The position numbers and the translations under genes were made by a program. A stretch of 64,000 bases of DNA from Somniosus microcephalus (Eukaryota): contig CM126219.1 in the NCBI GenBank assembly GCA_052327205.1, positions 50,840,001 to 50,904,000 of the forward strand. Direction: 5' to 3'. Shown in pieces: positions 31,093 through 64,000 of this stretch; the first letter of the stretch is position 1; every line of letters begins with the position of its first letter. Below the pieces are notes generated by a model. The model was not told where the DNA came from. It made no database searches and saw only the letters and a program-made list of their open reading frames with translations.

Positions 31093-32250
31093 AGAAACAT
31101 AGAACATAGAAGATAGGAGCAGGAGTAGGCCATTTGGCCCCTCGAGCCTGCTCCGCCGTTTAATGAGATCATGGCTGATCATCCAAACTCAGTAGCCTGT
31201 CCCTGCTTTCTCCCCATATCCCTTGATCCCTTTAGACTTAAGAAATATATCGAACTCCTTCTTGAATATATTTAATGAATTGGCCTCAACTGCCTTCTGT
31301 GGTAGAGAATTCCACAGGTTCACCACTCTCTGGGTGAAGAAATTCCTCCTCATCTCTGTCCTAAATGGCTTACCCTTATCCTTAGACTGTGACCCCTGGT
31401 TCTGGACTCCCCCGCCATCGGGAACATCCTTCCTGCATCTAGTCTGTCTAGTCCTGTTAGAATTTTATAAGTTTCAATGAGATCCCCTCTCATTCTTCTA
31501 AACTCCAGCGAGTACAAGCCCAATCGACCCAATCTCTCCTCATACGTCATTCCTGCCATCCCAGGTATCAGTCCGGTGAATCTTCGCTGCACTCCCTCCA
31601 TGGCAAGAATATCCTCAGATAAGGTGAACAAAACTGCACACAATACTCAAGGTGTGGTGTCACCAAGGTCCTGTACAACTGCAGCAAGACATCCTTGCTC
31701 CTGTACACTCATCCTCTCGCTATGAAGGCCAACATACCATTTGCCTTCTTAACCGCCTGCTGCACCTGCATGCTTACCTTCAGCGACTAGTGCACAAGGA
31801 CACCCAGGTCTCGTTGCACTTCCCCTTTTCCCAATCTATTGCCGTTCAGATAATAATCTGTCTTCCTGTTTTTGCCACCAAAGTGGATAACCTCGCATTT
31901 ATCCACATTATACTGCATCTGCTATGCATCTGCCCAATCACCCAACCTGTCCAAATCATACTGGAGTTTCTCTGCATCCTCCTCACAGCACACACGCCCA
32001 CCCAGCTTTGTGTCATCTGCAAACTTGGAGATATTACATCTAGATCCCTCGTCTAGATCATTAATATATATTGTGAATAGCTGGGGTCCTAGCACTGATC
32101 CCTGCGGTACCCCACTAGTCACTGCCTGCCACTCGGAGAAAGACCCGTTTATTCCAACTCTTTGCTTCCTGTCTGCCAACCAGTTCTCTATCCAAGTCAG
32201 TACCTTACCCCCAATCTCATGTGCTTTAACTTTGCATGCTAATCTCTTAT
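31093..32250 (-). mobile_element. CR1 LINE, 5'-truncated, inserted in the Gypsy internal region
   Basis: Highly similar to 15689-16820, with [12 protein letters not shown] and a tail of agaaacat-type repeats. Confidence 0.92.
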
Positions 32251-38689: not shown

Positions 38690-40305
38690 TGAGGGTGTAA
38701 GGCAAAAGGGGGTGGTAATGGGACAAGCAAGTAAAGAAACAAAAAATGGGTCCAGAGGAGGTGTTACAGCAGAATAGATTGGGGGGGGGACGGGGGGGCG
38801 GGGAGCATGGAAAGTCTGGCAAAGAGGAGAAGGTGCCCTAAGTTTGGGAGTGTGGTGGAAGAAAGGCAGGTAGACCCCAGAGGTGCAGACCACTGCACCA
38901 ACTGTGTCCCTAATCGGGGATCCCACCTCAAGCACCAGCCCACACCTCTTCCACTTCCAGTGCCTCTGGTGCAGCCATCCTTCATTAGCAGAACCTGCTG
39001 TCCGAGAAAATGGGAGCAGTGTTTAAGATCTAATGTTGTTAAACTCAGTGATAAGGCCGGAAGGCTGTAAAGTGCCTAAGCAAAAGATGAGGTGCTGTTC
39101 CTCGTACTTCTGTTGAACTTCATTGGAACAGTGTAGGAGGCCAAGGACAGAGAGGTCAGAGAGGGAGTGGGATCGAGAATTAAAGTGACAAGTGACCAGA
39201 AGCTCAGGGTCATGCTTGCGAACTGAACGGAGGTGTTCAGCAAACTGGTCACCTAATCTGCGCTTGGTGTCCCCAATGTAGAGGAGACCGCATCACAAGC
39301 AGCGAATACAGTACATTAAGTACAAGTAAGTCGCTGTTTCACCTTGAAGGTGTATCTGGGGCCCTGGATGGTGGGGAGGGAGGAGGTAAAAGAGCAAATG
39401 TTGCATCTCCTAAGATGTGTTTGGTAGTGGTATCATGCTGGAGGTGGCGAAAATGTCACAGGATGATCCGTTGAATGTGGAAGTTGGTGGAGTGGAAGGT
39501 GAGGACACGGGGAACCCAATCGTGGTTCTGGGAGGGAGGGGGAGGGGTGAGGACGGATGTGTGGGAAATGGGATGGATACAGTCGAGGGCCATGTCAACC
39601 ACAGTGGAGGGGAATCCTCAGCTGAGGAAGAAAAGGGTGGCGTTGTCAGAACAGATGCGACGGAGATGGAAAAACTGGGAGAATGGAATCGAGTCCTTGC
39701 AGGAAGCGAGGTGGGAGGAAATATAATGAAGGTAGCTGTGGGAGTCAGTGGGCTTAGAGTAAACACTGGTGGACAGGCTATCCCCAGAAATTGAGATAGA
39801 GAAGTCGAGAAGGAAAGGAAAGATTCAGAGACCATGTGAAGGCAAGGGAAGGATGGAAATTGGAAGCAAAGTTGCTGAAATTTTGCAGTTTGGGGCGAGA
39901 ACAGGAACTGGCACCGACACAGTCATCAATGTACCAGATAAAGCGGTCAGGGAGGGGACCTGAGTAGGAGCCGAACAAGAATGTTTCACGTATCCCACAA
40001 AACGCAGGCATAGCTAGGACCCATATATTTTCCCATAGCAAAACCTTTTATTTGGAGGAAGTAAGGGGAGTTATAGGAAAAGTTGTTCAATGTAAGTTCG
40101 GCCAGGCAGAGGAGGGTGGTGGTAGATGGGCATTGGTTGGGCCGCTGTGCAAGGATGAAACGGAAGTCCTGCAGGCCATCCTAGTGAAGGATTGAGATGT
40201 GGAGGGTCTGGATATCCATGGTGAAAAGGAGACAGTTAGGGGTAGGAAACTGGAAATGATTGAAATGGTGGAGGGCACTGGAAGAGTCATGGATGTTGGT
40301 CGGAA
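38690..40305 (-). mobile_element. Degraded PLE (RT and GIY-YIG part); the 5' part resumes at 55846-56350
   Basis: Remnants WYIDDCVG..NFASNFHPSL and LLFTMDIQTL, homologous to 9955-11697. Segment 55846-56247 gives the PLE N-terminus (HITSLSTCLPLRLIPYGFQLKF). Confidence 0.8.
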
Positions 40306-40873
40306 AAGGCAGGACAAATTGCCTGCAATTCCTATGCCATGTGGGAACTCCGGGGCTCTTCATTCAGGAAGTGTCTCCAGTTGCTCGAACTCAAGCTCAT
40401 TGTTTCGGAGCTTGAGGAGCAGCTGGAGTTACTGCAGGGCATACGGGAGGCTGAGAATTTCCTGGGGCACAGCTACAGAGAGTTCAGGAGGAAAGTAAGT
40501 GAGTGGCTATCCGGCAGCGCAGGTATCCTTGAAGTGTGCCACACTCAAACCGGTTTTCAGTACTGAGGGTAACGACCCCTTGGGGAGTGCAGTCTAGAGC
40601 ACACCCATAGCACTGTGGGGCAAACAACTGCACAGGGGGGCACAGCAAAATGTGTAGAAATGCAGTGGGGATTAGATAGTCGGTGGATAGACAGGTATTT
40701 CAGCAAACGCTAATGTGAGTCATGCATGGTGTGTTGCCTCCCTGGTGCCAGGGTAAAGGACATCACCGAACGGGTGCAGACAATGTTGTGGGGAGAAGGG
40801 GAACAGCCAGAAGTCATGGTCCATGTTGGAACCAATGACGTAGGTAAGAAAACAGTTGAGGTCCAGAGACAGA

Positions 40874-44039: not shown

Positions 44040-46791
44040 AGAGTTTCATGAGCTAAGGAGGAAGTTAAAGAACAGGACTTCAAAGGTAGTAATCTCTGGA
44101 TGACTCCCAGTGCCACGTGCTTTATTTTTTATTATTCATTCATGGTATATGGGTGTCACTGGCAAGGCCAGCATTTATTGCCCTTGAGAAGGTGGTGGTG
44201 AGCCGCCTTATTGAACCACTGCAGTCCATGCGGTGAAGGTACTCCCACAGTGCTGTTATGGAGGGAGTTCCAGAATTTTGACACAGCGACGATGAAGGAT
44301 CGGCGATATACTTCCAAGTCAGGGTGATGTGTGACTTGGAGTGGAACTTGGAGGTGGTGGTGTTCCCATGCGCCTGCTGCCTTGTCCTTCTATGTGGTAG
44401 AGGTTGTGGGTTTGGAGGTGCTGTCGAAGAAGCCTTGGTGCATTGCTGCAGTGCATCTTGTAGATGGTACACACTGCAGTCACGGTGTGCTGGTGGCGGA
44501 GGGAGTGAATATTTAAGGTGATGAATGGGGTGCCTATCAAGCGGGCTGCTTTGTCCTGGGTGGTGTTGAGTTTCTTGAGTGTTGCATTTATTGAGTGTTG
44601 TTGGAGCTGCACTCAACCAGGCAAGTGGAGAGTATTCTATCACACTCCTGACTTGTGCCTTGTAGATGGTGGAAAGGCTTTGAAGAATCAGGTGGTGAGT
44701 CATTCACCGTAGAATACCCAGCCTCTTACCTGCTCTTGTAGCCACAGTATTTATGTGGCTGGTCCAGTTAAAGTTCTGGTCAGTGGTAACCCCAGGATGT
44801 TAATGGTGGGAGATTCGACTATGAAAATGCCATTAAATGTCAAGGGGAGGTGATTAAACATTCTCTTGTTGGAGGTAGTCATTGCCTGGCACTTGTACGA
44901 TAGCAAAATACTGCAGATGCTGGAAATCCGAAATAACAACAGAAAATGCTGCAAAAAACTCAGCAGGCCAGGCAACATCCGTGGAGAGAAATTAGAGTCG
45001 ACGTTTCAGGTGAACCCTTTTTCAAAACTGGAAAGGAAATGAAATAGATCGAAGGCAGGGCTGCGATAGAACAAAAGAAGTAAAGAGACATTAAGAGGTA
45101 TTCAAAACCAGACGAGATAGTAATAGGACAGTGGAGACAAAAGCCGGCTCAGATTAGGTGTGAAGTGTAGGGGGCATCTTTTCTGTGGTTTACGGTAATT
45201 TACCTGGTCAGCAGCCTTTGCCTGCACTCTGACCAATTCCAATCTTTTAACTGGTTTACGGTAATTCACCTGGTTAGGCAGCCTTTTGCTGCTACACTGT
45301 AAACCAATTTCCAAACAGTGGTTTCGAATCGCTAACCCCACCTTCCAGTTCTGACTGGAGGAACTTATAATTAATGATATATCAAAAACGGACAATTGAT
45401 CTGGATGTGAGAAAGTCAAACTTTATTAAACTAAAGAAACTATAATCAAATTTTAAACTATACCACACGAACACAGTAATTACAGTAAGTTGCTTAACAG
45501 GGGAAGGCAGATGGCAAAAATGAGGGATTAATGGCTACAATGTTAATTAAACAATCTTAGCAATTTCCCCTGAATTACCACCCTCTAACTCTTTGCTAGG
45601 TTGCCTTGCTGAGGAGTCAGAAACCTGCTCACCTGTGGTCCAAGGACATAAGAGAGAGATAGCTTCTCAGGAGCTATCGTTATATCCTGCCAGCCCCTGC
45701 TGTTTGGCGCTGAAAGGGTCTGTGTGCAAAATTCGCACCCAAAAGTCCGAATATACAAGAGAAAGGCTGTGATTGGCTGATTCAAAGTGGTTGGAGTGGT
45801 TAGAATGTGCCTACCTTCTGGGGCCAAAGTGTACCCGCCCCCATCCAGAGTTCACCTGGGCTAAAACAAAAAGAGAATCCAACTGCCCTATTGTTCAGTA
45901 ATGGGTGATTCAAAAACCCATTCAATCCAAACTGTTCTCTTTCAAAAATCCTTTTCCAGAGTTTCAATGTGCCTCATTGTGTGTAAGAGGTTTGAATGGG
46001 GCTGGATTTCTGTGTAAACAGAAACCGATTGTCCTGCGGTTAGCATAACTGCAACCTAAGTGGATAATCCCTTATGTCGATAAACAAACATCGATTGCTT
46101 CTATAGAGAAGGGAAACTCCCTGGTTTGATTGACAGGTCTGACTGCCACTGCTTGATTCTCCCACTTACACAGATACTTCGAGCTGCGAGCTGCTTTTGT
46201 CTTTTGGCCATGCTTTCTGACAGCCATTTTTTAAACCCCTTTACAATTACAAAACTCCAGGGAACAATTTTATTAATAAAGTGTACTGTCTTAAAGTGTG
46301 CGAATTTTTCCATGAAGTTCCTCAATTCTGGTGTTGTCCATGTGCTGTCCATCCCAACGCAGCCTTTTGGGGTTCTGGGCACGTTTTAAAGCATCACACA
46401 ATTCTTCGTCCACAATGTGGACCAATATTTTCCGATCTTCAGGGATTTAGGGGATTTTTGCAAACCCCTACAGACCCCCCCCCTTTGGATACTTCCAACT
46501 TGATTGTAGTACCCACTCGAAGGAGTGAGCAAAATTTTCTGACCCCCGACAAACAACCATCCCCTGTATTTACCTAATAGCTACCTACCACTGATCCCCT
46601 GACCCGTCTATTCCCCTCAAATTCGAGAAAAAAACGTGGTACGGTAGGCATCTTACAGATACATCAGTTTACAATAAGGGTCTCATACCCCTGCATCACT
46701 TGTTACATTATACAATGCAATCAAAATTTACAATCACTTGTTACATTATAACTTATTACAAAATGTTGCAATCTTAGTTATACAATGTAAT

Positions 46792-46905
46792 CAAAATGAT
46801 CCCAAGCACGGAGAGGGTCCTACACCTCTGCTCAACTTGGAGTTGTCACAAAATGATCCCAAGCACGGAGAGGATCCTACGCCTCTGCTCAACTTGGGGC
46901 TGTAA
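46792..46905. repeat. Two-copy 57-bp tandem repeat with hairpin potential
   Basis: caaaatgatcccaagcacggagagg.tcctac.cctctgctcaacttgg at 46792 and 46849. Confidence 0.85.
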
Positions 46906-48565
46906 CACAAAATACAAAAATCTTCATTAAACATTTGAACAAAATGCTGAATTAAACCCCGACCATCACGTGCCAATGATGGGTCGCGAAATTCGAGTGG
47001 GTAATTGCTCCTCCCACTCGGGCAGTAAATGTTCCTTCCACCCCCCTTGAATGGTCTTAAACCTTTAAAACATAAAGAATGGATTTACAGACCAGCCTGC
47101 TCCGCCATCTCTGAGCCATTCCCTTGTCCCTTTGTGGAGGCGGGGTATCCCTCATGTTTAAAATTACCTTGGCACAGACCGAGACCGGGGAGTATGGGAT
47201 CGTGACTCCCAGTCCCTCCCCCTCCCGTCTTCCCTCAACTGGCTGCAGAAAATGATGGGTGCCTGTGTGGCAGCTCTCCCTGGCCCCACACTCAAACTTG
47301 GATCCCAGATCCGGCCACCCACTCATCCTCCCCAGCCACACTTACACTCTAACCTTGCCCGTGGGCCCCCAGGTGAGTTCCTCCCTTCCCCAAACGCACC
47401 CACACGACTCTTGGGTCACCCCCTCCCCTTTACAATCTTTCCCGGGCCATCACCACCCACTCCCGGGGAACGCGTCCCTATCTGACAAGCCGACCGCGCT
47501 TCCCCACCATGACTCCTCAACAGCAAGGTCTCCCGCAAGTGGACTTCGGTCAGGATAGTGCTGGGTTGGAGGCCGTGCCCCACCCAGCTGGGGCCATCTC
47601 TTCTGCGTAGGAGGAGTAGGCAAGTTCCTCCGGACCCGGTCCGGTTTCTCCCGAAGGTCGCTGTGGGGTTTCCCTCTGGATTTGTCCAGTGGCGAGGTGA
47701 TCCCCAACATTCTGTATCCATATCTTCCTTCGATGCCCAGCTCGGGCTGGGCGAACAGGGCTGCTTCTTCGTCCAATCTCCTGCAAAAACTTAAAAGGAC
47801 ATGCAGCCAGGTCTCTGACTGACCTGCTGCCTTAGGTGGAGGTGTGGTCGGGTCCCTCGACCTCGGACCAAAAACACAAACATTTGGCACACTTATAAAC
47901 TTAAACTTTATACTTAAACTTAAAACTACCAGTTAATTTTAAACTTACAATTTACACCTTAAAGCAAGCTATATACACACATAGCTATAATACAAATGCC
48001 GCCCGTCTCCGGATGGCCAGGCTAATCTCTGGCACTGCCGCAGATTACTGCTGGCTGCAGCGAAGCTGGACTGCCTCCTGCTTCTTGTCCCTTGCAGCTT
48101 ATGGCTGCTGATTGGGGACCCCTGTTCTTTGGCTTCTCCCCGGTTTGGGAGATTGCTCTTTGTGGCAGGTACTCTGGTGACCATCTTTTCTTGGGCTTGC
48201 AGACCCGCTGAGACTTTCTGAGGGGCGTCTCTGTGGGGGAAACGTTGGCTGGCGGACCCTCAGCCGGAGTCACAGCCCTAGCTGGCTGGGAACCTTCTCC
48301 CCCTGGTGCAAACAGCCTGGACTGTATAATATACCTGGCAGCCTGCCGGTACTCCGGGTTTGTCTGCTTTTCCCTACCCACTCCTGTACTGGGGGCAGGT
48401 ATACCTTCACCACCTGCTGTTGATGGCTGAAAAACTTCCTCTCCAGGTCCAAAACCTGGTACCAGCTCCCCTGCAAGAGGGACTGCTATCCCTGCCTCCC
48501 CAGGGTCCCACACCATAGGGGGAACCACTCTGGAAGCGGGCTGGGAAGCTTGTCCCTTTAAACAA

Positions 48566-49215
48566 GCGACTGCGCCTGCGCAAACTTCCTCCCGAGTCCC
48601 ACGGCAGAGGCTGTGAAGCCTCTGTCTTCAAGCAGGCGACTGCACCTGCGTGAGAACACTGAAAAAGAGCCGCTGTGGCCCCGCCGGCAACTGCGCCTGC
48701 GTAACCTTCCTCCTCGGAGTCCCGCGGCAGAGGCTGTGAAGCCTTGGCTTCAAACAGGCGATTGCGCCTGCATGGGAAAACCGAGAAAGAGCCGCTGTGG
48801 TCCCGCAGGCAACTGTGCCTGCGTGAACAATCTTTTTACAGGGCTGGGGAACCACTAAACTAGCACAGGCAACCGCACCTGCGCGTTCGATTTGCTTGAG
48901 AAGGATAGGAATAACCACTGGGTCTTCCATGCAAGCTACTGCGCCTGCGCGTATGGATTGTGAAGCGGGGACCTGTAAACGGCTGACTGCGCCTGCGCGC
49001 TCGGCCTCACAGTGAGCAAGAGCCGCTCGAGGTTCCGAGTCCGCGACTGCGCCTGCGCGAACCCGGTGTTGAGAAACCTCTCCTCTCAGGCGCGCGGCTG
49101 CGCCTGCGTGAACCTCCTGTTGGCAAAACTCTCCCCTCAGGCGCGCGACTGCGCCTGCGCGGGAAAACTGAAGAGGAGCCACTTGGAGTATGGGCTGGGG
49201 AACTGCGCTTGCGCG
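48566..49215. repeat. Array of 12 conserved ~17-nt repeats (GCGACTGCGCCTGCGCG) with variable spacers
   Basis: Starts at 48566, 48636, 48687, 48758, 48809, 48869, 48935, 48983, 49043, 49094, 49145 and 49199. Confidence 0.9.
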
Positions 49216-49639
49216 AGCAGTCTCTTGTGAATGAATTGGCAGCAGCCTGCAGATTTCTAATCTCAGGTTGCTGTTTCTCTGTTTTTGAGCCACATAACTT
49301 GTTCAAATTTAAACTTTGGTTCGAATTTAAGCTTTGGCCAAAATTTAGGTCCCACTGGGGCAGGGAAGTGTCCCAATTTGTGGGCTGGACAACTTTTCCC
49401 TGGAAACAAGCCACAGTGCCTGTCTTTACAGGCTGTGAACTTGAACTTGTCTTGTCAGATTTATACACTTTTCCCTGTGTCCCATCCCTGCCTGTAATCA
49501 CTGCCACTGGCCCGGACTCATATGGGTCCCAGAAAGTGCCTGTACGTGCACCCTCCTTGGCCAGCCTACCGGCCAGTCATTGTGAGGAGGCAGAGGTGGG
49601 CGAGGGGGCTGCAGCACCACTGATGGCCACTACCTTTCC

Positions 49640-50917
49640 CTAGTTGGTCAGCAGAGACCGCATTGCCTCCAGTAGTGACTCGACTGAGGCGGGGGAAGTT
49701 CCTGTCTGTACCCTTTGAGTTGAGGCTGCGGGGGTCCCGGCTTTATCGTCTCTCTCAAGCCTTTTACAATCCCTGCGCCACTGGCCCTCCTCCCCCCACC
49801 TGTAACAAGTGACCTTGTTCTGGGAGGGACGGCTCCCCTCCTGGCAGCACTCTTTCTTATATTGAGCCCCAGGTTTAACCTCGTGGACTTTACCCTTTTG
49901 CTGGGGGGTCTCACTATTCCTCCCGTTTCCATATGCTACCGTGAGCTGCCGGATTACAGTCTCTTCGGTTACTAAGGTGTCTCGGGAGTCAAACCATGTA
50001 TCAGCTTTTACCTTTATCTGGGGCAGGCAATTGGACACCAGGCAACGAAACCATTCGGTCTGCTGCCGCTGGTTCAGTTGTGCCCTATCTTGTCCCCCTG
50101 CACAGGCACGGTTGTAGACTGGCCACAGCCTGTCTGCAAATGCCTGTGGAGTCTCCCCTTCCTTCTGCAGTGTTTTCCCCACGCAATCGAATGGATTGCC
50201 ATCGTTCGCACACATAGCTTCCAGTATTTCCTCCTTCAGGTCCTCAAAACCCTTCTGCCCTCTCTTAGCCTCATCTGAAAGGGTTTGATAGAGCTTGCTA
50301 TCCACAGAGAAAAGCAACATTCTGGCTTTCTCTTCATCATCACAGCTGTTAACACCGGCTGCCTGGTCTACTTGTTGGAAGTACATTGAGGGGTCTCCCT
50401 TTTCAGAGAGCATGGGAATATGTTTCACCATGCCTCTGAGCTGTTGGGTATCATAGGGTACCAGATAGGTATTTTGAACAGCCCCTGGGTCATTATCATT
50501 CACAGGCGGACCGTACCTCCGTTGTCGGAGGGGGTACACTGGTCCTGGTCCCTGCCTGGCTAGCGGGACCTGCTGGCATTCTCCTACCACCCCATTGTCC
50601 ACCCCTTCTTGCTGCCAGAGCTCCTCAAAACCCGGAGCTGTGGGCTGCTGTCTTGGGATCTCTAATTCCCTAGCCAGCCTTTCCCTGGGTGTTGCCTGTG
50701 GGGCGGTTTGATTTGGGCTGCTGGTAAAATCCGGCTGACCTGCCTTCGGGGCGATCAGGCAAATCATCCCCCTTGCTCCTTTTAAAGCCACATTAAGGCT
50801 TTCTACCTCTGCCCTACAGGGGCCATGATCTGCTTCACTAAACCTTTGGTCGCAGGCCAGCTTATAAGCTGCTGTAACTTCTGAGATGAGGCGAACATTC
50901 TCTTCCCACAGTCTCAT
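49640..50917 (-). CDS. gag: Gag-like protein (capsid-like region and degenerate zinc knuckle); frameshifted N-terminal coiled-coil part at 50914-51150
   Basis: Position directly after the PBS. QKEGETPQAFADRL (MHR-like) and CYRWGEEGQWRRDC (decayed CCHC). Confidence 0.75.
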   Translation of the reverse strand: MRLWEENVRLISEVTAAYKLACDQRFSEADHGPCRAEVESLNVALKGARGMICLIAPKAGQPDFTSSPNQTAPQATPRERLARELEIPRQQPTAPGFEELWQQEGVDNGVVGECQQVPLARQGPGPVYPLRQRRYGPPVNDNDPGAVQNTYLVPYDTQQLRGMVKHIPMLSEKGDPSMYFQQVDQAAGVNSCDDEEKARMLLFSVDSKLYQTLSDEAKRGQKGFEDLKEEILEAMCANDGNPFDCVGKTLQKEGETPQAFADRLWPVYNRACAGGQDRAQLNQRQQTEWFRCLVSNCLPQIKVKADTWFDSRDTLVTEETVIRQLTVAYGNGRNSETPQQKGKVHEVKPGAQYKKECCQEGSRPSQNKVTCYRWGEEGQWRRDCKRLERDDKAGTPAASTQRVQTGTSPASVESLLEAMRSLLTN

Positions 50918-51166
50918 CTTGCTATCTCGGCCTCAGTGGCTTCCTGCGCAAGGCGCTCTATCTCTGCCTGGCATTTTCCCAATTCTGACTCCCAATTCTT
51001 GGCCTCTTTAACCTCCTCCTGCACCCTCATCTCACCCTCCTTAACCCAGCCACCTATACCATGATAGGTCAGCCTACACGCTGCCGCTAACATACTGAAA
51101 ACGAGAGAAACAAGAGCTGATGCTTTCTCCAGATCCAGACCACTCATCATATCAAGAACTGCCTCC

Positions 51167-51185
51167 AGTCCTGCCGCGGTCGTCA
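51167..51185 (-). promoter_or_regulatory. Primer-binding site, tRNA-Arg(TCG)
   Basis: Plus-strand agtcctgccgcggtcgtca matches the vertebrate tRNA-Arg-TCG 3' end AGTCCTGCCGCGGTCGCCA at 18/19 positions (tRNA sequence recalled, not looked up). It lies 3 nt from the 5' LTR. Confidence 0.8.
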
Positions 51186-54100
51186 ATGTGCAGGGGGGCA
51201 TCTTTTCTGGGGTTTATGGTAATTTACCTGGTCAGCAGCCTTTGCCTGCACTCTGACCAATTCCAATCTTTTACCTGGTTTACGGTAATTCACCTGCTCA
51301 GGCAGCCTTTTGTTACTGCACTGTAAACCAATTTCCAAACAGCGGTTTTGAATCGCTAACCCCGCCTTCCAGTTCTGACTGGAGGAACTTATAATTAATG
51401 ATATATTAAAAATGGACAACTGATCTGGATGTGAGAAAGTCAAACTTTATTAAACTAAAGAAACTATAATCAAATTTTAAACTATACCACACGAACACAG
51501 TAATTACAGTAAATTGCTTAACAGGGGAAGGCAGATGGCAAAAATGAGGGATTAATGGCTACAATGTTAATTAAACAATCTTAGCAATTTCCCCTAAATT
51601 ACCACCCTCTAACTCTTTGCTAGGTTGCCTTGCTGAGGAGTCTGAAACCTGCTCACCTGCGGTCCTAGGAAGTAAGAGAGAGATAGCTTCTCAGGAGCTA
51701 TCTTTATATCCTGCCAGTCCCTGCTGTTTGGCACTGAAAGGGTCTGTGTGCAAAATTCGCGCCCAAAAGTCCAAATATACAAGAGAAAGGCTGTGATTGG
51801 CTGATTCAAAGTGGTTGGCGTGGTTAGAATGTGTCTACCTTCTGGGGCGGAAGTGTACCCGCCCACATCCGGAGTTCACCTGAGCTAAAACAAAAGGGAA
51901 TCCAACTGCCCTATTGTTCAGTAATGGGTGATTCAAAAACCCATTCAATCCAAACTGTTCTCTTTCAAAAATCCCTTTCCGGAGTTTCAATGTGCCTCAT
52001 TGTGTGTAAGAGGTTTGAATGGGGCTGGATTTCTGTGTAAACAGAAACTGATTGTCCTGCGGTTAGCATAACCGCAACCTAAGTGGATAATCCCTTATGT
52101 CAATAAACAAACATCGATTGCTTCTATAGAGAAGGGAAACTCCCTGGTTTGATTGACAGGTCTGACTGCCACTGCTTGATTCTCCCACTTACACAGATAC
52201 TTCGAGCTGTGAGCTGCTTTTGTCTTTTGGCCATGCTTTCTGACAGCCATTTTTTAAACCCCTTTACAATTACCAAACTCCAGGGAACAATTTTATTAAT
52301 AAAGTGTACTGTCTTAAAGTGTGTGAATTTTTCCACGAAATTCCTTGACTCCGGTTTTGTCCATCCCAACGTAGCATTTTGTGGTTCTGGGCACATTTTA
52401 AAGCATCACACAATTCTTCGTCCACGATGTGGACCAATATTTTCCGATCTTCAGGGATTTAGGGGATTTTTGCGAACCCCTACAGAATGTACTGGCAGGA
52501 TGAGACACAGCTGCCATGTGGGAGAGAGAAAAAAAAGGAAAGGGGGGAGGAAGGGAAAACCTAAAACAAAGGGGTGGGAAAAAATAAGTAAAAATGTAAT
52601 AGGGGCCGAGGTTATGATCTGAAATTGTTGAACTCGATATTGAGTCCAGAAGGCCTGGCACTTGTATGGCACGAATGTTACTTGCCATTTATCAGCCCAA
52701 GCCTGGATGTTGTTCCGATCTTGCTGCATGCAGGCACAGACTGTTTCATTATCTTTTGAATATAGGAGTAGTAAGATAAGACAGTTAACATGTGGATGGA
52801 GAAATGGTGCAGGAGGGAGGGCTTCAGGTTCTTGGTGCATTGGAACCAGTTCTGGGGCAGAAGCGACCTGTACAAGATGGACGGATTGCACCACAACAGG
52901 CCTGGGTCCAATGTCCTCACAGGGAGCTTAACTAGTGTTGTGGGGAAGGGTTTAAACTAATTTAGCCACAGGAAGGGCACCAGGATGAAGCATTAGAGAG
53001 GAGATACAAGGTGCGCAGAGGACTAGGTGAGAGAAACAGCATTAGAATAAAGAATAGTTCAGAAATAGGAGGGAGCAGAACAGGGGGAAATATGAGGCAA
53101 ACTATGATGGGTTTGGAGTACATGTCCATAAATGCATGGAGGGTGGCAGATAAGGTTGGTGAGCTGCAAGCATAAGTAGCCACATAGAATTCTGATGTAG
53201 TTGCAATAACAGAGACCTGACTCAAACAAAGAGTGGAATGGACACGTAATATTTCTAGCTACAATGTTTTCAGGAAAGATAGGAAAGGAAAAAAAAGGGA
53301 GGAGGGTGGCAGTATTGATCAAAGATACTATTATATCACTGGAAAGGCATGATGTACTTGAGGGTTCAAAGACAGAATCTATTTGGTTAGAATTAAGGAA
53401 CAATAGAGGCGTTATTATGCTGCTAGGTGTATGTTATAGGCCACCAGATCGTGTGAAGTAGATAGAGGAGCAAATCTGCAGGCAAATTACAGAAAGATGC
53501 AAGAACTTTAGAGTGGTGATAATGGAGGACTTCAATTGTCCTAATACAGACTGGGAAAATAGCAGTGTAAAGGGCAAAGTGGGGGAGGAATTTGTGAAAT
53601 ATGCACAAGAGAACTTTCTTGACTAGTATGTTTCCAGCCCAACAAGGAATGAAGCAGTACTGGATCTAGTTCTGGGGAATGAAGTGAAGCAAATGGGAGG
53701 CCATCGAAGACGAGATAGCTTGGGTACAGACTAGCCACATTCCCACGAGGGGGAAAGGAAGGGCATCCAAAGCCAGATCTCCCTGGATGACTAAAGATAT
53801 AAAAATTAAAATAAAACAGAAAAAGGAGCTTTCAATAATTGTTGGGTTCGTAATTCAGTAGAGAAAAGCTGAATACAAAAAGTAACAGAAAAAGGATATA
53901 AGAGGGGCAAAGAGAGTATGATAATAGATTAGCGGGTAACCTGAAACTGAACCAAAAAGTATTTTATGAACATATAAATACTAAAAAGGTAGTCAAAGGA
54001 AGGGTAGGGCCGATTAGGGACCAAAAAGGAGATCTTCTTATGGGCATGGCTGAGGTTCCAAATGAGGACTTTGCATCTTTCTTCACTAAAGAAGAGGATG

Positions 54101-55837: not shown

Positions 55838-58169
55838 AGTTTTTGTTAAAGTGCCGGATGAGGTGAAGGATTAAATGGAGTTGAGGACCAGGACAGCTGT
55901 GAAATAAAGTGAGTCAGTGCTGCTGGAGAGAGAGGTCGAGAGCATGCATGTGGCTGCCCATGGCAGGAAGCAGCAAGAGCAGTGGTTTGAGGAACGCTGA
56001 ATATCACAGAGATATCTGTGATCAAGGGTGGATCCAAAACATGAAGGTGGAATTTAAGTTGGAATCCATATGGAATAAGTCGGAGTGGGAGACAAGTGCT
56101 GAGGGAAGTGATGTGACTTTGAAAGCAAGCTTTAGCAGACACGTGATCAAACACAAGAAGGGAAACAAAATGTAATGAAGGTGAACAAGGTAAAAGAGAC
56201 AAAAGGAAATCCTGTCGGAGAGAACAGAACTTCTTCAAGGTGGGCATTCTTGGATGAGAAGCAGCAGTGAATTAAACACTAAAAAAAAAGGGAAATACTG
56301 CGGAAGCTGGAAATCTAAATAAAAACAGAAAATCCTGGAAAACACTCATCATTCAGCACCTTATTTTGCACTGGAGGTTATAGGGGCTGCCCATTACATT
56401 CTCCTATCTTCTTCGAACGGCAGAAAATACCACATTGTCACAGTGTAAGGTTCAGGCTAAAAGCAATAGTTTAATCATTTACAAGTAATGCAATTATACA
56501 GAAGCAGAAATACAGGAGGACACTAATTATACAAATCCTTATAAAGCAACAACAATTGTATCAATCCACAAGATTTTAAATATCTTTTTTGTAACATATT
56601 TCCTTCATGGTTTAATTATCTGTAAGACTTGGAAGGCATGGAATTTCAGACTTGCTATGTTTGTGAAGAAATATTCTTCTTTACTTTACAGAGTCCAGCT
56701 GTTCACTTTGATGCAACTGAAAACTGAACTAAAAACGACAGGAAAGGTGGTTTTTTCCAAATTGACAAAAATAAAGAACGGTCACTCACGGTACTTTAAA
56801 GACAAAATGGTGCATCTGATGCATAAAATAGTTTGACGAGAAGCTGTTCACACATTGCCTAGGTGTTGCATCACTATGGATGCTTTGCTGAGGTTAAATC
56901 AATTTGCCCTACATCAAAGTCGCTGCATCCTGGTTAATCTGCAGATCAATCACCCTTTGCTTGCATTTTGGCATCAGCTTCCATTTTATAGCTTAGTAGG
57001 GAAATACAACTTTCATCTTAATGCTAATAACCTGTAATCCTATGGTCATTAATACAGGAATTTCCTATTTGAAGCATAGTGGAGCTCTGCCATCAAAGCA
57101 ATACTCTCCAAGGGGAAGTGAAATTCACTCTGTTGATGATCCTACCAAAAGGGTAAAGAAAAATTAGTGACTTTTCACTACAAATGGCTTTATCCAAATC
57201 AAGGTCAGTGCAGTCACTGTATTCCAAAGTTTGTGTCACATGAACATATCTGGCAAGCATAGAATGAGAGGCTGTGTTTATAGGTGTTTGCACAAGTGTG
57301 TACAGCTCTTCACATGTCCACTTGTGAAAGGAAGCCAAAGCTTGATGAGTGGAACATATGTATAAAGTTTGTTTAAAGTTGAATCATTTAAGTCATCTAT
57401 GTGGTATGTCAGTGTTTATGGAGTATATACAGCTGCTTTATGTATATTTCCAAGGAGACCTCTTTTCTAATAAAAATTCACTCAAGGGGGTGATTTTATA
57501 CCTAAAGAAACCTTTAGCATTGGTGGGGGAGAAATCATAAAATAATCAAAAACATGTTTAATGAAAATATTTATGGTTTGAATATAATTAGCTTTGCCAA
57601 ATAGGGACTTGCAAAAGAGATGCTACTTTTGATCAAAATCAACTGCCTGCAGTGTTTGTGGACTAGGAGCTCCAATACCATATGGGGATATATCGCTCGA
57701 TCTGAACCCTTTGAGCATACTATGGTAAATATAGAACAATATTTTCTTGCTCGAGTACAATGTTTAATTTTATACGCAGATGATTACTTACATGATGTCA
57801 GCCTTGGCTCAGTTGTAGCACTCTCCCCTCCGAGACAGAAAGTTGTGGGTTCAAGTCCCACTCCAAAGACTGAGCAGATAATCGAGGCTGGGACTCCAGT
57901 GCAGTACTGAGGGAGTGCTGCACTGTGGGAGGTGCCATCTTTTGGATGAGATGTTAAGCCGAGGCCCCATCAGTCCTCTCAAGTGGACATAGAAGATTCT
58001 ATGGCACTATTCGAATTAGAGCATGGGAGTTTTCCCAGTGTCCTGGCCAAAAATTCATCCCTCAACCAACACCAGTAACCATGATGTGGAGATGCCGGTG
58101 TTGGACTGGGGAGGACAAATGTAAGAAGTCACACAACACCAGGTTATAGTCCAACAGCTTTATTTGAAA

Positions 58170-58206
58170 TCACAAGCTTTCGGAGCGCTGCTCCTTCGTC
58201 AGGTGA
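58170..58206 (-). ncRNA. Minimal type-I hammerhead ribozyme
   Basis: tcac-CTGACGA-a-ggagc-agc-gctcc-GAAA-gc-tt-gtga. Intact core with a palindromic AAGCTT helix III. Confidence 0.75.
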
Positions 58207-60140
58207 AGTGAAGAGTTGCATATAAGCACAGCATATATAGTCAGAGAGTACTGCCAGATGATTACAGGTAATCTTTCTAACTGCCCTTTATCACACCTCG
58301 GCAGAGATAATCACAGCAATCAATGGTGTCCAAACAGGTCAGTCAGGAAAACATTACATCAAAGAACAATGAGGTGGGGTCAGAAGGGGTCAAATGTTGC
58401 AGATGCTGGAGTCTGTATGAAAAACAAAAAAAACAAAAAAAAACTTTTTTGCTGGCGATCACAGCAGGTCCGGCCGCATCTGTGTAGCGAGAACAAGCCA
58501 AGGACGACTCGAGTCTGGATGACTCTACGTCAGGTGGGGTTATATGTAGCGTGACATGAACCCAAGATTCCGGTTGAGGCCGTCCTCATGAGTGCAGAAC
58601 TAGGCTATCAGTTTCTGCTCGACGATTTTGTGTTGTCGTGTGTCTCGAAGGCCGCCTTGGAGAATGCTTACCCGAAGATCGGAGGCTGAATGTCCTTGGC
58701 TGCTGAAGTGTTCCCTGACTGGGAGGGGACACTCCTGCCTGGCGATTGTTGTGCGGTGTCTGTTCATCCGTTGTCGCAGTGTCTGCATGGTTTCGCTGAT
58801 GTACCATGCTCCGGGGCATCCTTTCCTGCAACGTATGAGGTAGACAACGTTGGCCGAGTCACATGAGTATGTACCATGTACCTGGTGGGTGGTGTCCTCA
58901 CATGTAATGATGGTATCTGTGTTGATGATCTGGCATGTCTTGCAGAGGTTGCCGTGGCAGGGTTGTGTGGTGTCGTGGTCACTGTTCTCCTGAAAGCTGG
59001 GTAATTTGCTGCGAACGATGGTCTGTTTGAGGTTAGGCGGCTGTTTGAAGGCAAGTAGTGGAGGTGTGGGGATGGCCTTAGCGAGGTGTTCGTCGTCATC
59101 GATGACATGTTGAAGGCTGCGAAGAACATGGCGTACTTTCTCCGCTCCGGGGAAGTACTGGACAACGAAGGGTACTCTGTTGGTTGTGTCCTGTGTTTGT
59201 CTTGTGAGGAGGTCTATGCGATTTTTTGCTGTGGCCCGTCGGAACTATCGATCGATGAGTCGAGCATCATATCCTGTACTCACGAAGGCATCTTTCAGCG
59301 TCTGTAGGTGTACATCACTTTCCTCCTCGTCTGAGCAGATCCTGTGTATTCGCAGGGCTTGTCCAGAGGGGATGGCTTCTTTAACATGGTTAGGGTGGAA
59401 GCTGGAGAAGTGGAGCATCGTGAGGTTGTCCGTGGGCTTGTGGTAGAGTGAAGTGCTGAGGTGTCCGTCTTTTGATGGAGATTCGTGTGTCCAAGAATGA
59501 AACTGATTCTGAGGAGTAGTCCATGGTGAGTTTGATGGTGGGATGGAACTTGTTGATGTTATCGTGTAGTCTTTTCAGTGATTCTTCGCCGTGGGTCCAT
59601 AGGAAGAAAATGTCATTGATGTATCTGGTGTATAGCATTGGTTGGAGGTCCTGTGCAGCGAAGAAGTCTCGCTCGAACTTGTGCATGAAGATGTTGGCGT
59701 ATTGGGGTGCGAATTTGGTCCCCATGGCTGTTCCGTGTGTTTGGGTAAAGAACTGGTTGTCGAAGGTGAAGACATTGTGATCAAGGATGAAGCGGATGAG
59801 TTGTAGGATGGCGTCTGGAGAGTGGCTGTTGTTGGTGTTGAGTACTGAGGCTGTCACAGCGATGCCGTCATCGTGGGGGATACTGGTGTAGAGTGCAGAG
59901 ATGTCCATCATGGCGAGGAGTGTTCCCGGTTCAACTGGTCCGTGGGTGCAGAGTTTCTGTAAGAAGTCTGTAGTGTCGCGACAGAAGCTGGGGGTTCCCT
60001 GTACGATGGGTTTCAGGATGCCCTCGACGTATCCAGAGAGGTTCTCACACAGGGTTCCATTGCCTGATACGATAGGACGTCCGGGTGTGTTGGCTTTGTG
60101 TATCTTGGGAGGCAGTAGAAGTCTCCCACGCGGGGAGTAC

Positions 60141-61742
60141 TGTCGGGTTCAAAAATCCACAACCACGTTTTAACAAAAATTGGATTGCCCTATACAGTTT
60201 AAAACCAACATTTTCAGCCAAGGCAGAGGTCCCGACAAGCAGGCTGGGATATGCCTGGGACATCTGAATACAGGGGACTGTGGCTCAGAGGCGAGCCATA
60301 GATGTCGGCCAATCGAAGCAGATTGCATTCTCAAAGGCCAATCAGGGGGCCGAGTCAGACCTGAAGCGAGGAAACCCCCGGCCAATGGGGACCACCCGGT
60401 CTGGGTTTGAATATGTGACTCACCCCTAATCGGGCTATGAATACAAGCCATCATCACCTTAATCAACTTGGACTAGGGACAATAGTCTTGGGATCACTAC
60501 AGTTAAGAGGTGGCCCAAACTAATCAAGTCCCAGGACTGACACAATGGGGCAGCAGACTTGGAGGAGCCAATGTGCACTCAAAACAATACCCCTGTCCTC
60601 ACACCTACCTGTATAAATAGGGAACACAAGAAGCACCAACGCTAAGAGAGAACTATTACCAGAAGAGCGAACAGGAGAGCGAGTTAAGACGCTGAGGGAA
60701 AAGATGAGCCAGGGAGGGATCAGTTGGGGCAAACTAACATCTAAAGAACTCCAACCGCGCTGAGGAGAAGATCCACCATCAGACCCCAGGCTCAATCCGT
60801 ATACTGAAGGTTTACTCCGCTACCAGACGGCGCAACATCGCCGCAAGAAGCCGTACCGTATAACAACTCCCGTTCCGGGGACCTCGACACGAACGACCGA
60901 AGTGGCTGTGGAAGTCGGCATTCACTCCAGTCATTTCGGGAACCTTTTCCATCAAGCACATACCAACCAACGACAACCGACCGAAAGCGCAATCAACAAA
61001 ACCAAACTTCGAGAAAACCCGACCAGACGCAGCAAGGTCCTCTCCAAGGTTCAGGGTACGGCGAACCCCGAGGCACAGGTCGAATTCCGACGACGACAGC
61101 AGCAACAACAACCGCACTCAAAATTCCATCTGTCAAGGGAGGAGGCTGAGAGTATAATCCAAGGGCCTGCAACTGTCAGCCTAGTTTAGGTAGGAAAGTG
61201 GGTTGGTGGGATTGGACTTGGTAAAGATAAAACTGTGTAAACATTCTCGTTGTGTCCGTTCTCACTCATATTTTATTTATAGTTATAAATATGTGTGTGT
61301 GTTTATTACATTTGTGGTAGAACTTACCTTGGCAAATAAAATTGGTTGTCACCTGTTCTTTTTCCAAGGACTACTTGTCTCCGAGTGTCTATTTAAAGTG
61401 TATCGTTCTCCACCCAAATTCTGGAGTTAGAACCAGATAGGGGCATTAGGGCGCTTCAAACCCGCCAAACAAGGGAACAGCAGACTAGGGAAAAGAGAGA
61501 GGACTCCAGGAGCATTTGGGCTCAGGAGTACCCCACAGATTAGGTATAAACTGTGCGGGTCGCCACCGTATTTTAGTCCTCCTCTATAAGCTGTTGTTCT
61601 CTATCTCCTTAGAGGGTGTTTAGTGACACCCGACCTGCAGGCTAACATAAGCTGCAAGGGTATAAAGGAGACCGAGGCCCAATACATCAACAGGCACTAA
61701 AGACCCCTGCAATTGGGCAGAACAGAGCCCCATCCCCCTACA
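60141..61742 (+). mobile_element. Solo LTR (1602 bp)
   Basis: TG..CA termini and a perfect 4-bp TSD GTAC; removing it restores the PLE sequence. CCAAT boxes at ~60310-60385, TATAAATA at 60612 and AATAAA at ~61335. Confidence 0.9.
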
Positions 61743-63738
61743 GTACGTGGGATGAGAGCGCGTAGGATGCTTTGAAGGTCTGGATCGAAGGTCTTGATCA
61801 GTTTGTTGAGTTGGCGGGTGTGTTCTTTGGTCGGATCTGCGGGTAACTGTCTGTAGTGTTCCTGGTTGTCCAGTTGTCGGTATGCTTCTTTGCAATAATC
61901 CGTTCTGTTCGGTATGACGATGGCTCCTCCTTTGTCTTTGTCTGCTGGTTTGATGACGATGTTGCAGTTGGTCTTGAGAGCGTGGATGGCATTGCGTTGT
62001 GCTCGGGTGACATTCTGGGCTGTCTTGTGAGTGCAGCTGATGAATCTGGCATTGATGCATCTCCTGACAGCTTGAGCATACATGTCAAGCTTAGGGCAGC
62101 GACCCTGCGGAGGGGTCCAATTTGATTCTTTCTTCTTCGGTTGCCATCCTACAACTCATCCGCTTCATCCTTGACCACAATATCTTCACCTTTGACAACC
62201 AGTTCTTTACCCAAACACACGGAACAGCCATGGGGACCAAATTCGCATGCCAATACGCCAACATCTTCATGCACAAGTTCGAGCAAGACTTCTTCGCTGC
62301 ACAGGACCTCCAACCAACGCTATACACCAGATACATCGATGACATTTTCTTCCTATTGATCCACGGCGAAGAATCACTGAAAAGACTACACGATAACATC
62401 AACAAGTTCCATCCCACCATCAAACTCACCATGGACTACTCCTCAGAATCGGTTTCATTCTTGGACACACGAATCTCCATCAAAGACGGAAACCTCAGCA
62501 CTTCACTCTACCGCAAGCCCACGGACAACCTCACGATGCTCCACTTCTCCAGCTTCCACCCTAACCACGTTAAAGAAGCCATCCCCTATGGACAAGCCCT
62601 GTGAATACACAGGATCTGCTCAGACGAGGAAGAACGCGATGGACACCTACAGACGCTCTCGTAAGAACAGGATATGACGCTCGACTCGTCGATCGACAGT
62701 TCCGACGGGCCACAGCAAAAAATCGCATAGACCTCCTCACAAGACAAACACGGGACACAACCAACAGAGTACCCTTCGTCGTCCAGTACTTCCCCGGAGC
62801 GGAGAAACTACGCCATGTTCTTCGCAGCCTTCAACATGTCATCGATGACGACGAACACCTCGCTAAGGCCATCCCCACACCTCCACTACTCGCCATCAAA
62901 CAGCCGCCTAACCTCAAACAGACCATCGTTCGCAGCAAATTACCCAGCTTTCAGGAGAACAGCGACCACGACACCACATAACCCTGCCACGGCAACCTCT
63001 GCAAGACATGCCAGATCATCAACACAGATACCATCATCACACATGAGGACACCACCCACCAGGTACATGGTACATACTCATGTGACTCGGCCAATGTTGT
63101 CTACCTCATACGTTGCAGGAAAGGATGCCCCGGAGCATGGTACATCAGCGAAACCATGCAGACACTGCAACAACGGATGAACGGACACCGCACAACAATC
63201 GCCAGGCAGGAGTGTTCCCTCCCAGTCGGGGAACACTTCAGCAGTCAAGGACATTCAGCCTCTGATCTTCGGGTAAGCATTCTCCAAGGCGGCCTTCGAG
63301 ACACACGACAACACAAAATCGCCGAGCAGAAACTGATAGCCTAGTTCTGCACTCATGAGGACGGCCTCAACCGGAATCTTGGGTTCATGTCACGCTACAT
63401 GTAACCCCACCTGACGTAGAGTCATCCAGACTCAAGTCGTCCTTGGCTTGTTCTCGCTACACAGATGCGGCCGGACCTGCTGTGATCTCCAGCAAAAAAG
63501 TTTTTTGTTTGTTTTTTGTTTTTCATACAGACCACAGCATCTGCAACATTTGACCCCTCGTCACCCCACCTCATTGTTCTTTGATGTAATGTTTTCCTGA
63601 CTGACCTGTTTGGACACCATTCACAGCTGTGATTATCTCTCTGCCGAGGTGTGATAAAGGGCAGTTAGAAAGATTACCTGTAATCATCTGGCAGTACTCT
63701 CTGACTATATATGCTGTGCTTATATGCAACTCTTCACT

Positions 63739-63775
63739 TCACCTGACGAAGGAGTAGCGCTCCGAAAGCTTGTGA
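63739..63775 (+). ncRNA. Minimal type-I hammerhead ribozyme (inverted-arm copy)
   Basis: tcac-CTGACGA-a-ggagt-agc-gctcc-GAAA-gc-tt-gtga. The C>T change keeps pairing as a G-U wobble. Confidence 0.72.
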
Positions 63776-64000
63776 TTTCGAATAAAGCTGTTGGACTATA
63801 ACCTGGTGTTTGACTTCTTACAACATCAGTAACAAAACAGATTATCTGTGTATTATCTCATTGCTAATTGTGGGAGGTTGCTGTGTGCAACTTGGTCACA
63901 TTTCCTACATTACAACTGTGATTTCACTTCAAATTACTTCATTGGATGTAAAACACATTGGGACATCCTGAAGTTGTGAAAGGTGTTATATAAATACAAG

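What the first reader, a model, noticed from the sequence alone, without database searches (positions are those of the whole stretch)
45166..52484. Long-LTR retroelement with Gag but a novel repeat-rich ORF in place of Pol
Seen: complete cis elements (1.3-kb LTRs, tRNA-Arg PBS, PPT) and gag, but I find no D[ST]G, YxDD, RNase H or DDE motif. In frame after gag come a TAG (49640), 20 codons, CAA-TGA-CTG (49577) and a long coding-like region (49507 to 48022, with frameshifts). That region holds RAGAVA repeats and ends in PLRKSQRVCKPKKRWSP, resembling the basic tail of Gypsy integrases. A further 1.5 kb of GC-rich unexplained sequence precedes the PPT. Inference: a non-autonomous satellite-type lineage that supplies its own capsid plus a readthrough accessory protein and borrows Pol in trans. 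This is my best candidate for an undescribed system here.
Basis: partly seen in the sequence, partly recalled or inferred. Interest (0 to 1): 0.72.

Follow-up and report, generated by a model that had tools for sequence, protein, structure and literature searches.

The report
Shrunken shark endogenous retrovirus, frame kept
This is a dead copy of an abundant, cut-down endogenous retrovirus, likely from a shark, whose 'new gene' is only the leftover end of its enzyme gene; the surprise is that most independent deletions in the family kept that leftover in frame although its protein sequence drifts freely, so translation through it likely mattered more than its product.

Summary
The LTRs, tRNA-Arg primer site, polypurine tract and gag are real, but 'ORF2' is not a new gene. 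The same genome holds copies with a complete pol (protease, RT, two RNase H domains, integrase) behind the same CAA-TGA-CTG. The window copy lacks two pieces of it and keeps the RNase H end plus Pol's C-terminal tail. The 'unexplained' 1.5 kb is partly decayed env. The parent is a snakehead-retrovirus-related ERV, not Gypsy. Its double deletion defines an amplified non-autonomous subfamily (at least 317 copies) of the same age as its pol-bearing partners, like mouse IAP IΔ1 or zebrafish BHIKHARI. The TAG and frameshifts are decay. Three things exceed expectation. 15 of 17 independent large pol deletions are in frame while the tail's amino acids evolve neutrally (dN/dS 0.86 against 0.36 for capsid). 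The RAGAVA repeats are conserved as DNA and match an NRF1 site. The env-less lineage gained a hydrophobic Gag N-terminus, as IAP gained a new Gag targeting signal. Earlier notes of this scan report in-frame pol replacement in another family of this genome. Verdict: new variant of a known kind, moderate interest.

The parts
51189..52484 (-). 5' LTR (TGTA...TGCA), TATA-like 51708, AATAAA 51451
51168..51185 (-). primer binding site, tRNA-Arg(TCG), 17 of 18 matches
50917..51201 (-). 5' part of gag with a hydrophobic N-terminal segment specific to the env-less lineage; frame break near 50930; start codon uncertain (51201 in U5, or 51150/51147)
49580..50932 (-). gag coiled coil, capsid, degraded zinc knuckle (49807-49766); premature TAG 49642-49640 is decay
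49577..49579 (-). natural gag stop TGA in CAA-TGA-CTG; pol follows in frame in the parent (inferred readthrough site)
49471..49573 (-). remnant of the RNase H end and linker between deletion 1 (2349 nt: PR, RT, tether, most of RNase H) and deletion 2 (1209 nt: integrase with GPY); both in frame
48022..49471 (-).
48568..49161 (-). array of 11 units with DNA core YRYGCAGGYRCA (NRF1-type site), read as RAGAVA in the pol frame
47115..47516 (-). decayed remnant of env surface-unit coding sequence; the fusion/TM part is absent
46792..46913 (.). 57-bp tandem duplication in the 3' untranslated part
46475..46486 (-). polypurine tract
45166..46472 (-). 3' LTR (TGTA...TACA)

Best explanation
The element is a decayed copy of an amplified, pol-deleted subfamily of an env-less endogenous retrovirus related to snakehead retrovirus; it would have made its own Gag and borrowed protease, RT and integrase from same-age pol-bearing copies, and the leftover pol frame was likely kept open so that ribosomes reading through the gag stop could run on to the old pol stop, not to make a new protein. 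Shown: an env-bearing type, an env-less type with full pol, an intermediate lacking only integrase (L069; L163 similar) and the window type all sit in one genome; the env-less types carry a different LTR, a hydrophobic Gag N-terminus and an expanded array of one DNA motif inside the Pol tail; large pol deletions are mostly in frame; capsid is constrained, the tail is not. Inferred: order of events (env loss, integrase loss, then PR-RT-RH loss), intracellular assembly, trans-complementation in mixed particles, readthrough at TGA, protection of the RNA from nonsense-mediated decay as the reason for frame keeping (about 50% among mechanisms), and NRF1 binding to the array as an internal activator (about 40%).
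For: Full pol behind the same stop in 5 of 40 first copies, plus one interrupted by an insertion; Pfam RVP, RVT_1, RT_RNaseH, RNase_H, H2C2, rve. Window maps to L066 with two gaps. Junction 1 is identical in 43 of 43 subfamily copies; exact 25-mers genome-wide: 317 deleted-type, 353 protease-start type, 0 in reversed controls. LTR divergence medians 0.036 (29 deleted-type) versus 0.035-0.036 (21 others), p 0.68. In-frame deletions: 28 of 34 distinct lengths in env-less copies; 15 of 17 founder groups, p 4.5e-6 against 1/3 and 9e-4 against the most generous microhomology null of 0.49. Controls: small private pol deletions 12 of 32, 3' non-coding deletions 6 of 15, env-type large deletions 0 of 2. 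Shared small indels: tail 5 of 7 multiples of three plus one compensating pair, 3' region 9 of 47. dN/dS of shared variants in the subfamily: capsid-NC 0.36 versus 0.70 private (p 0.009); tail 0.86 versus 1.00. Motif third positions: Ala A 266 of 267, Gly C/T 266 of 267, flanks 43% identical; the Nrf1-Sdha probe in PMC11415578 contains TGCGCAGGCGCAG, as does the unit at 48582. Readthrough protects MoMLV RNA from NMD (PMC4917968 passages; PMC9661723 passages).
Against: No translation or RNA-stability data. Deletion 1 starts 7 nt after the stop, so any downstream readthrough signal is lost, and no significant stem-loop was found even in the parent (z -0.4 to -1.1). Only 5 of 40 subfamily copies are open from TGA to the pol stop and 18 of 40 are net in frame, so the signal lies in shared events, not in single copies. 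Deleted and pol-bearing copies recombined (interleaved gag tree), so some in-frame tail variants may be imported. The tail shows some long-term constraint between env-type and env-less copies (dN/dS about 0.5), and the 20-codon basic motif has too few variants to test. Seven of 42 subfamily copies have 0-1 motif units, so the array is dispensable. The RT tree leaves the relation to SnRV unresolved. The host is inferred from named Gag relatives and earlier notes.
Confidence: 0.78

Rival explanations
1. The frame is kept because a short peptide at the end of the tail (the basic PLRRSQRVRKPK motif, a possible nuclear-localisation or RNA-binding signal) must be fused to Gag by readthrough and acts in cis, as the Gag-Pol fusion of IAP IΔ1 does.
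For: All amplified deletion types keep the motif region, and the compensated frameshift lies just after it. The motif has a counterpart in env-type copies and SnRV Pol ends in a basic stretch. Tail dN/dS between env-type and env-less is about 0.5. The IΔ1 fusion acts in cis (review PMC6466679 passage).
Against: Shared variants in the motif: 2 synonymous, 5 non-synonymous, dN/dS 0.70, no better than private ones (low power). The rest of the tail is neutral.
Confidence: 0.25
2. One reading: a satellite lineage with a novel readthrough accessory protein whose RAGAVA repeats have a protein function.
For: The frame is kept and the repeats expanded in this subfamily (median 7.5 units versus 4 in other env-less and 0-1 in env-type, p 4e-5); spacing is a multiple of three in 227 of 243 cases.
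Against: The region is pol-derived. Its amino acids evolve neutrally. The repeat core is fixed at synonymous sites. Open copies of 243 codons exist and some copies lack the array. No Pfam match below E 0.02.
Confidence: 0.06
3. The in-frame excess is a by-product: a few founder deletions happened to be in frame, or were guided by codon-periodic microhomology or splicing, and hitch-hiked.
For: Many deletions share breakpoint clusters and may descend from one another; microhomology raises the null to 0.36-0.49.
Against: After merging clusters, 15 of 17 remain in frame (p 9e-4 against 0.49). Junction microhomologies are only 1-6 nt and 2 of 34 fit GT..AG. Private and non-coding deletions show no bias.
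Confidence: 0.1
4. The parent is a lokiretrovirus or a Gypsy element rather than an SnRV-related retrovirus.
For: Dual RNase H and 'NYNRIN-like' nearest proteins in frog and coelacanth fit lokiretroviruses; BHIKHARI has a similar gag-only layout.
Against: The lokiretrovirus RT rows I saw read PFGYANSP / IYVDD, while this family shares LDISNGFWSI and LQYVDD with the SnRV row. Gypsy RTs are split off with 100% support. No Fusion_gly match in the genome (weak search). No lokiretrovirus sequence was in my tree.
Confidence: 0.07

Closest known systems
Mouse IAP / IAPE and IAP IΔ1 (review PMC6466679 and PMC10924933, passages read; primary papers not held)
   Same: Env loss with a new Gag targeting signal and higher copy number; a non-autonomous subtype with an in-frame internal deletion that needs Pol in trans and whose translation matters in cis.
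   Different: IAP is class II; IΔ1 is one deletion fusing gag to pol. Here gag stays whole, the leftover pol lies behind a stop codon, and at least 15 independent in-frame deletions are recorded.
Snakehead retrovirus and SnRV-like ERVs (clade Huo; CmiERV lineage I of elephant shark, PMC4422223)
   Same: RT 44% identical to L195, whose RT matches the SnRV row of the PMC7947760 supplement; Pol E 2e-94 and 1e-35; about 625-aa Gag with one zinc knuckle; in-frame stop between gag and pol; GPY motif; coiled-coil Gag (PMC2717909 passages).
   Different: Stop is TGA rather than TAG; PBS sequence differs; no env similarity by blastp; closer relatives (53-56% RT) are unnamed frog and coelacanth elements; the tree does not resolve a sister relation.
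Zebrafish BHIKHARI Bik-1/Bik-2 (bioRxiv 2024.03.25.586437, passages read)
   Same: Non-autonomous fish ERV keeping a roughly 620-aa coiled-coil Gag without pol or env.
   Different: Lokiretrovirus-related; no autonomous partner found in the reference genome; no retained pol frame described in the passages read.
MoMLV gag-pol readthrough (PMC4917968, passages read)
   Same: In-frame stop between gag and pol; readthrough counters nonsense-mediated decay.
   Different: MoMLV uses UAG with a pseudoknot and an RNase H-eRF1 contact; here TGA-CTG, no significant structure, and RNase H is deleted.

Membership tests
Retroviridae (parent element) | RT groups with retroviruses, apart from Gypsy | tested here: met
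   SH-aLRT 99-100; best PDB hits foamy and MLV RT ahead of Ty3
Retroviridae (parent element) | Dual RNase H (tether plus active domain) | tested here: met
   PF17917/PF17919 followed by PF00075
Retroviridae (parent element) | env gene after pol | tested here: met
   Env-type copies have a signal-peptide-like start, RQRR site and C-terminal hydrophobic segment, read by eye, no Pfam env hit; window keeps a remnant
SnRV-like ERVs (clade Huo) | RT clusters with SnRV | tested here: inconclusive
   Shared motifs and 44% identity, above class I bird ERVs (32-35%), but an open polytomy
SnRV-like ERVs (clade Huo) | In-frame gag-pol stop, coiled-coil Gag with one zinc knuckle, GPY motif | tested here: met
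   coiled coil read from sequence, not predicted by a tool
SnRV-like ERVs (clade Huo) | Env related to SnRV Env | tested here: not met
   No blastp hit at E 0.01 between three env pieces and L195 ORFs; env swaps are common, so this is weak
ERV4 (crocodilian) | No zinc finger, no GPY/F, 5-bp TSD (PMC4299795 Table 1) | tested here: not met
   zf-CCHC and GPY present, 4-bp TSD
Lokiretrovirus | RT in the lokiretrovirus clade | tested here: inconclusive
   Motifs differ from the Loki rows seen in the supplement; no Loki sequence in my tree
Lokiretrovirus | Env similar to PF00523 | tested here: inconclusive
   No match in genome, but the search was strict and rang nowhere; env pieces have no such Pfam hit
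Metaviridae / Gypsy | Single RNase H, RT within Gypsy | tested here: not met
Non-autonomous ERV (IΔ1 / BHIKHARI type) | Amplified after enzyme loss, shared junctions | tested here: met
   43 of 43 copies share junction 1; at least 317 genome-wide
Non-autonomous ERV (IΔ1 / BHIKHARI type) | Contemporary autonomous partner with the same cis signals | tested here: met
   Same PBS, related LTR, equal LTR age, signs of recombination
Non-autonomous ERV (IΔ1 / BHIKHARI type) | Mobilisation in trans shown by experiment | not testable with these tools
   no assay possible
Known Repbase/Dfam family | Match to a curated consensus | not testable with these tools

The most novel reading that the evidence does not exclude
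A likely shark retrovirus replayed the mouse IAP path (env loss, new hydrophobic Gag N-terminus, higher copy number) and then shed its enzymes many times, each successful deletion keeping a junk pol frame open for readthrough ribosomes while hiding an expanding NRF1-site enhancer inside that frame. This would be a natural, replicated evolutionary experiment showing that translation itself, not the product, licenses a non-autonomous retroviral RNA.
Probability: 0.4. Interest if true: 0.68.

Novelty: new variant of a known kind. Interest (0 to 1): 0.45.

Why it matters
The claimed new gene dissolves, but the family offers genome-scale evidence on a question known mainly from single laboratory cases (IAP IΔ1, MoMLV reporters): why defective retroviral RNAs keep a reading frame they no longer need. 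It also records a full reduction series from env-bearing virus to gag-only passenger in a fish lineage where few ERVs are described, and shows a regulatory DNA array disguised as a peptide repeat, a trap for annotation.

Tried and rejected
Lokiretrovirus as parent: first favoured, dropped after the supplement's RT rows. ERV4: features not met. Stimulatory stem-loop after TGA: not better than shuffles in three parent copies; window z -1.8. Splicing as source of the deletions: 2 of 34 fit GT..AG. Pfam on the window's six ORFs: nothing below E 0.02. Fusion_gly search of the genome: no match, uninformative. Origin of the new Gag N-terminus: no match in env-type copies except a coiled-coil stretch. 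Expression: no RNA holder listed; two RNA runs with a matching species label gave depth under about 70 per strand, on both strands, mostly 90-95% alike, no informative splice joint, so family-level background only. The integrase dN/dS row used a wrong frame and was redone; pol rows mixed in env-type copies. The first careful RT tree did not finish; both trees are quick trees. Rows dropped: L181 (fetched on the wrong side), L041 (no junction), L095 (tandem copy, left out of LTR dating), L189 (from one alignment); copies without a PBS match or LTR pair in the fetched stretch were not dated. Literature: no paper on this family or on in-frame pol deletions in fish ERVs in ten searches; four primary papers (Hart 1996, Hogg and Goff 2010, Saito 2008, Ribet 2008) were not held. 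Earlier-finding look-ups by sequence, words and place near returned nothing.
Full report
1. The observation. The element lies on the minus strand between 52484 and 45166. Its LTRs are about 1.3 kb, 95.7% identical, K2P 0.044, with a 4-bp target duplication carrying one mismatch; 9 of 16 relatives with clean ends have an exact 4-bp duplication. The primer site matches host tRNA-Arg(TCG) at 17 of 18 bases. No YxDD, RNase H or DDE motif is present in any frame. The capsid part of Gag folds confidently (pLDDT 86) and its best matches are MLV, HTLV, Arc and PNMA2 capsids (top E 2e-3, probability 1.0). The copy is dead: Gag breaks frame near 50930, the zinc knuckle is degraded, a TAG at 49640 is found in only 3 of 43 subfamily copies, and the tail breaks frame near 49227, 48745 and 48594 relative to close relatives.

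2. What 'ORF2' is. A Gag search of the own genome gave 21,925 candidates; the 150 scored were all at least 84% identical. Of the first 40 copies fetched, five carry about 3.5 kb more right after CAA-TGA-CTG and a sixth carries it with an insertion. That DNA encodes protease, RT, a tether RNase H, a second RNase H and integrase with GPY, and continues in the same frame into the RAGAVA repeats and the basic tail. Against one such copy (L066) the window keeps 49573-49471 (end of RNase H, 94%) and 49471-48022 (tail), with 2349 and 1209 nt missing.

3. The 3' region. Among 80 copies fetched at the protease-start junction, 15 are of a diverged type. Several of these have an env with a signal-peptide-like start, an RQRR site and a C-terminal hydrophobic segment (read by eye; no Pfam hit). 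Window 47516-47115 matches the surface-unit part (tblastn E about 1e-9); the rest of env is gone.

4. Classification. RT plus tether scores best against foamy and MLV RT, then Ty3. The closest proteins are unnamed 'NYNRIN-like' Pols of frogs and coelacanth. I first read this as a lokiretrovirus (PMC7947760: parts 1-2 of 4 and supplement searches), but the Loki RT rows I saw differ, while the SnRV row shares LDISNGFWSI and LQYVDD. A 10,688-nt viral contig whose RT matches that row (L195) has the same plan: 625-codon Gag with one zinc knuckle, an in-frame stop, Pol with GPY; RT identity 44%, Pol E 2e-94. In a quick tree the family is split from Gypsy with 100% support but sits in an open polytomy with SnRV and class I ERVs. 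SnRV-like ERVs are already known from elephant shark (PMC4422223, part 1 of 2) and other vertebrates (PMC6001957, PMC4977317, passages). Named Gag relatives come from Heterodontus and Scyliorhinus, so the host is likely a shark.

5. A real non-autonomous subfamily. Junction 1 is the same in 43 of 43 copies. Exact 25-mers number 317 for the deleted junction and 353 for the protease-start junction; these are floors. L069 has lost only integrase, which suggests the order of losses. LTR divergence is the same for deleted-type (median 0.036, 29 copies) and other env-less copies (0.035-0.036, 21 copies), and the two are interleaved in a gag tree, as expected from co-packaging. None of 26 copies without a large pol deletion is open from the stop to the pol end and the youngest LTR pair is 0.018 apart, so the family looks extinct; with the rate assumed in PMC4422223 the ages are tens of millions of years, a rough figure.

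6. The unexpected part: frame kept, peptide not. Env-less copies show 34 distinct large pol deletions, 28 in frame. Merging those with nearby breakpoints leaves 17 founder groups, 15 in frame (p 4.5e-6 against one third; 9e-4 against the highest microhomology null). A stricter count over all types, needing every member in frame, gave 13 of 19 (p 0.002). Controls show no bias: 12 of 32 small pol deletions, 6 of 15 non-coding deletions, 0 of 2 env-type deletions. Shared small indels in the subfamily's tail are multiples of three in 5 of 7 cases, the other two compensate each other; in the env remnant 9 of 47 are. Yet shared substitutions in the tail are near neutral (dN/dS 0.86 versus 1.00 private) while capsid-NC is constrained (0.36 versus 0.70, p 0.009). 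The frame ranges down to 243 codons and is fully open in 5 of 40 copies. Against: no significant RNA structure follows the stop, deletion 1 begins 7 nt after it, a recurrent one-base loss in a G run occurs in 13 scattered copies, and recombination may have imported some in-frame tails.

7. Mechanism. Most ribosomes would stop at the gag TGA, leaving several kb untranslated. In MoMLV such a 3' region is expected to trigger nonsense-mediated decay and readthrough protects the RNA (PMC4917968 passages); under 1% readthrough can suffice (PMC9661723 passage). A deletion that shifts the frame would stop readthrough ribosomes early; one that keeps it lets them clear the RNA to the old pol stop. I rate this the most likely reason (about 50%), ahead of a cis-acting basic peptide (25%), chance (10%) and a new accessory protein (6%). 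It is inference; no translation was observed.

8. The repeats. Picked at protein level so that third positions were free, the units have Ala-A in 266 of 267 and Gly-C/T in 266 of 267 cases, whereas flanks of different units are 43% identical. The conserved thing is the DNA word YRYGCAGGYRCA; ten copies lie in the array, 13 in the whole window against 0.14 expected. The Nrf1 probe of PMC11415578 contains the same TGCGCAGGCGCAG (passage); that this is the standard NRF1 matrix consensus is recalled. Env-type copies have 0-1 unit, other env-less copies a median of 4, this subfamily 7.5. Binding is untested and some copies lack the array.

9. Gag N-terminus. Env-type copies and the outgroup-like proteins P0001 and P0122 share a basic N-terminus; env-less copies have instead a hydrophobic segment (best 19-residue hydropathy 1.7-2.3 in 8 copies versus 1.2 in P0001) that changes fast in sequence. 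IAP arose from IAPE by env loss and a new Gag addressing signal (PMC10924933, PMC6466679, passages). The parallel is inferred; no targeting predictor was run.

10. Verdict. A gag-keeping, Pol-borrowing ERV is a known kind (IAP IΔ1; BHIKHARI, bioRxiv 2024.03.25.586437 passages and one section). I found no paper on this family in ten searches and could not query Repbase, Dfam or bioRxiv supplements, which may describe it. The new gene is refuted; the replicated in-frame bias, the DNA-level motif array and the full reduction series make it a new variant worth a targeted follow-up. Interest 0.45.

Noticed in passing
L110:2:109.80 Mb, L114, L177, L096, L153 (G000 C1/C2 loci): Env-bearing relatives, 15 of 80 protease-start copies by sequence type; env has no Pfam match and no blastp match to SnRV Env. 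The three read most fully (L110, L114, L177) are split into pieces. PBS-adjacent 28-mers: 242 env-less versus 29 env-type.
   Followed up: partly
window 51201: In env-less copies an ATG at the end of the LTR is in frame with gag and the frame is open through the PBS, so Gag might start in U5.
   Followed up: partly
window 48184-47969 (-): A small alternative-frame ORF overlaps the pol end and has a look-alike in env-type copies; a 46-nt block at 48030-47985 is 78-85% conserved with them. Possible accessory ORF or splice signal.
   Followed up: no
L092, L086 and relatives: Some subfamily copies share a further deletion leaving only 500 nt between PBS and gag stop, i.e. a second-order non-autonomous form without capsid.
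   Followed up: no
L095 and G000:C1:195.37-195.39 Mb: Tandem copies about 6-7 kb apart.
   Followed up: no
window 23239-28121 (-): Young Gypsy-like element with 179-bp LTRs (99% identical) and gag and pol ORFs of 287 and 853 codons, nested in an older element with roughly 950-bp repeats at 15687-16631 and 31103-32054.
   Followed up: no
window 58135-63810: Inverted repeat with arms of about 1.7 kb, 91-99% complementary, overlapping a Penelope-like RT ORF at 59390-60148.
   Followed up: no
window 9940-11697 (+) and 39009-40317: Penelope-like RT plus GIY-YIG ORF of 585 codons (read by eye) and an inverted older copy.
   Followed up: no
window 45165/52488: RNA reads join the two flanks across the whole element: it sits inside a common transcribed repeat whose uninterrupted copies give these reads.
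   Followed up: partly
runs X6, X4, X2 on window 49250-49900: Contigs bridge junction 1 in X6 and junction 2 in X4 and X6, runs labelled as organisms B and C, so the deleted subfamily is not confined to one species label.
   Followed up: partly
G000:C35:1.58-4.40 Mb: Large tandem arrays (about 1.6-kb period) containing the primer tRNA-Arg(TCG); 341 matches genome-wide.
   Followed up: no
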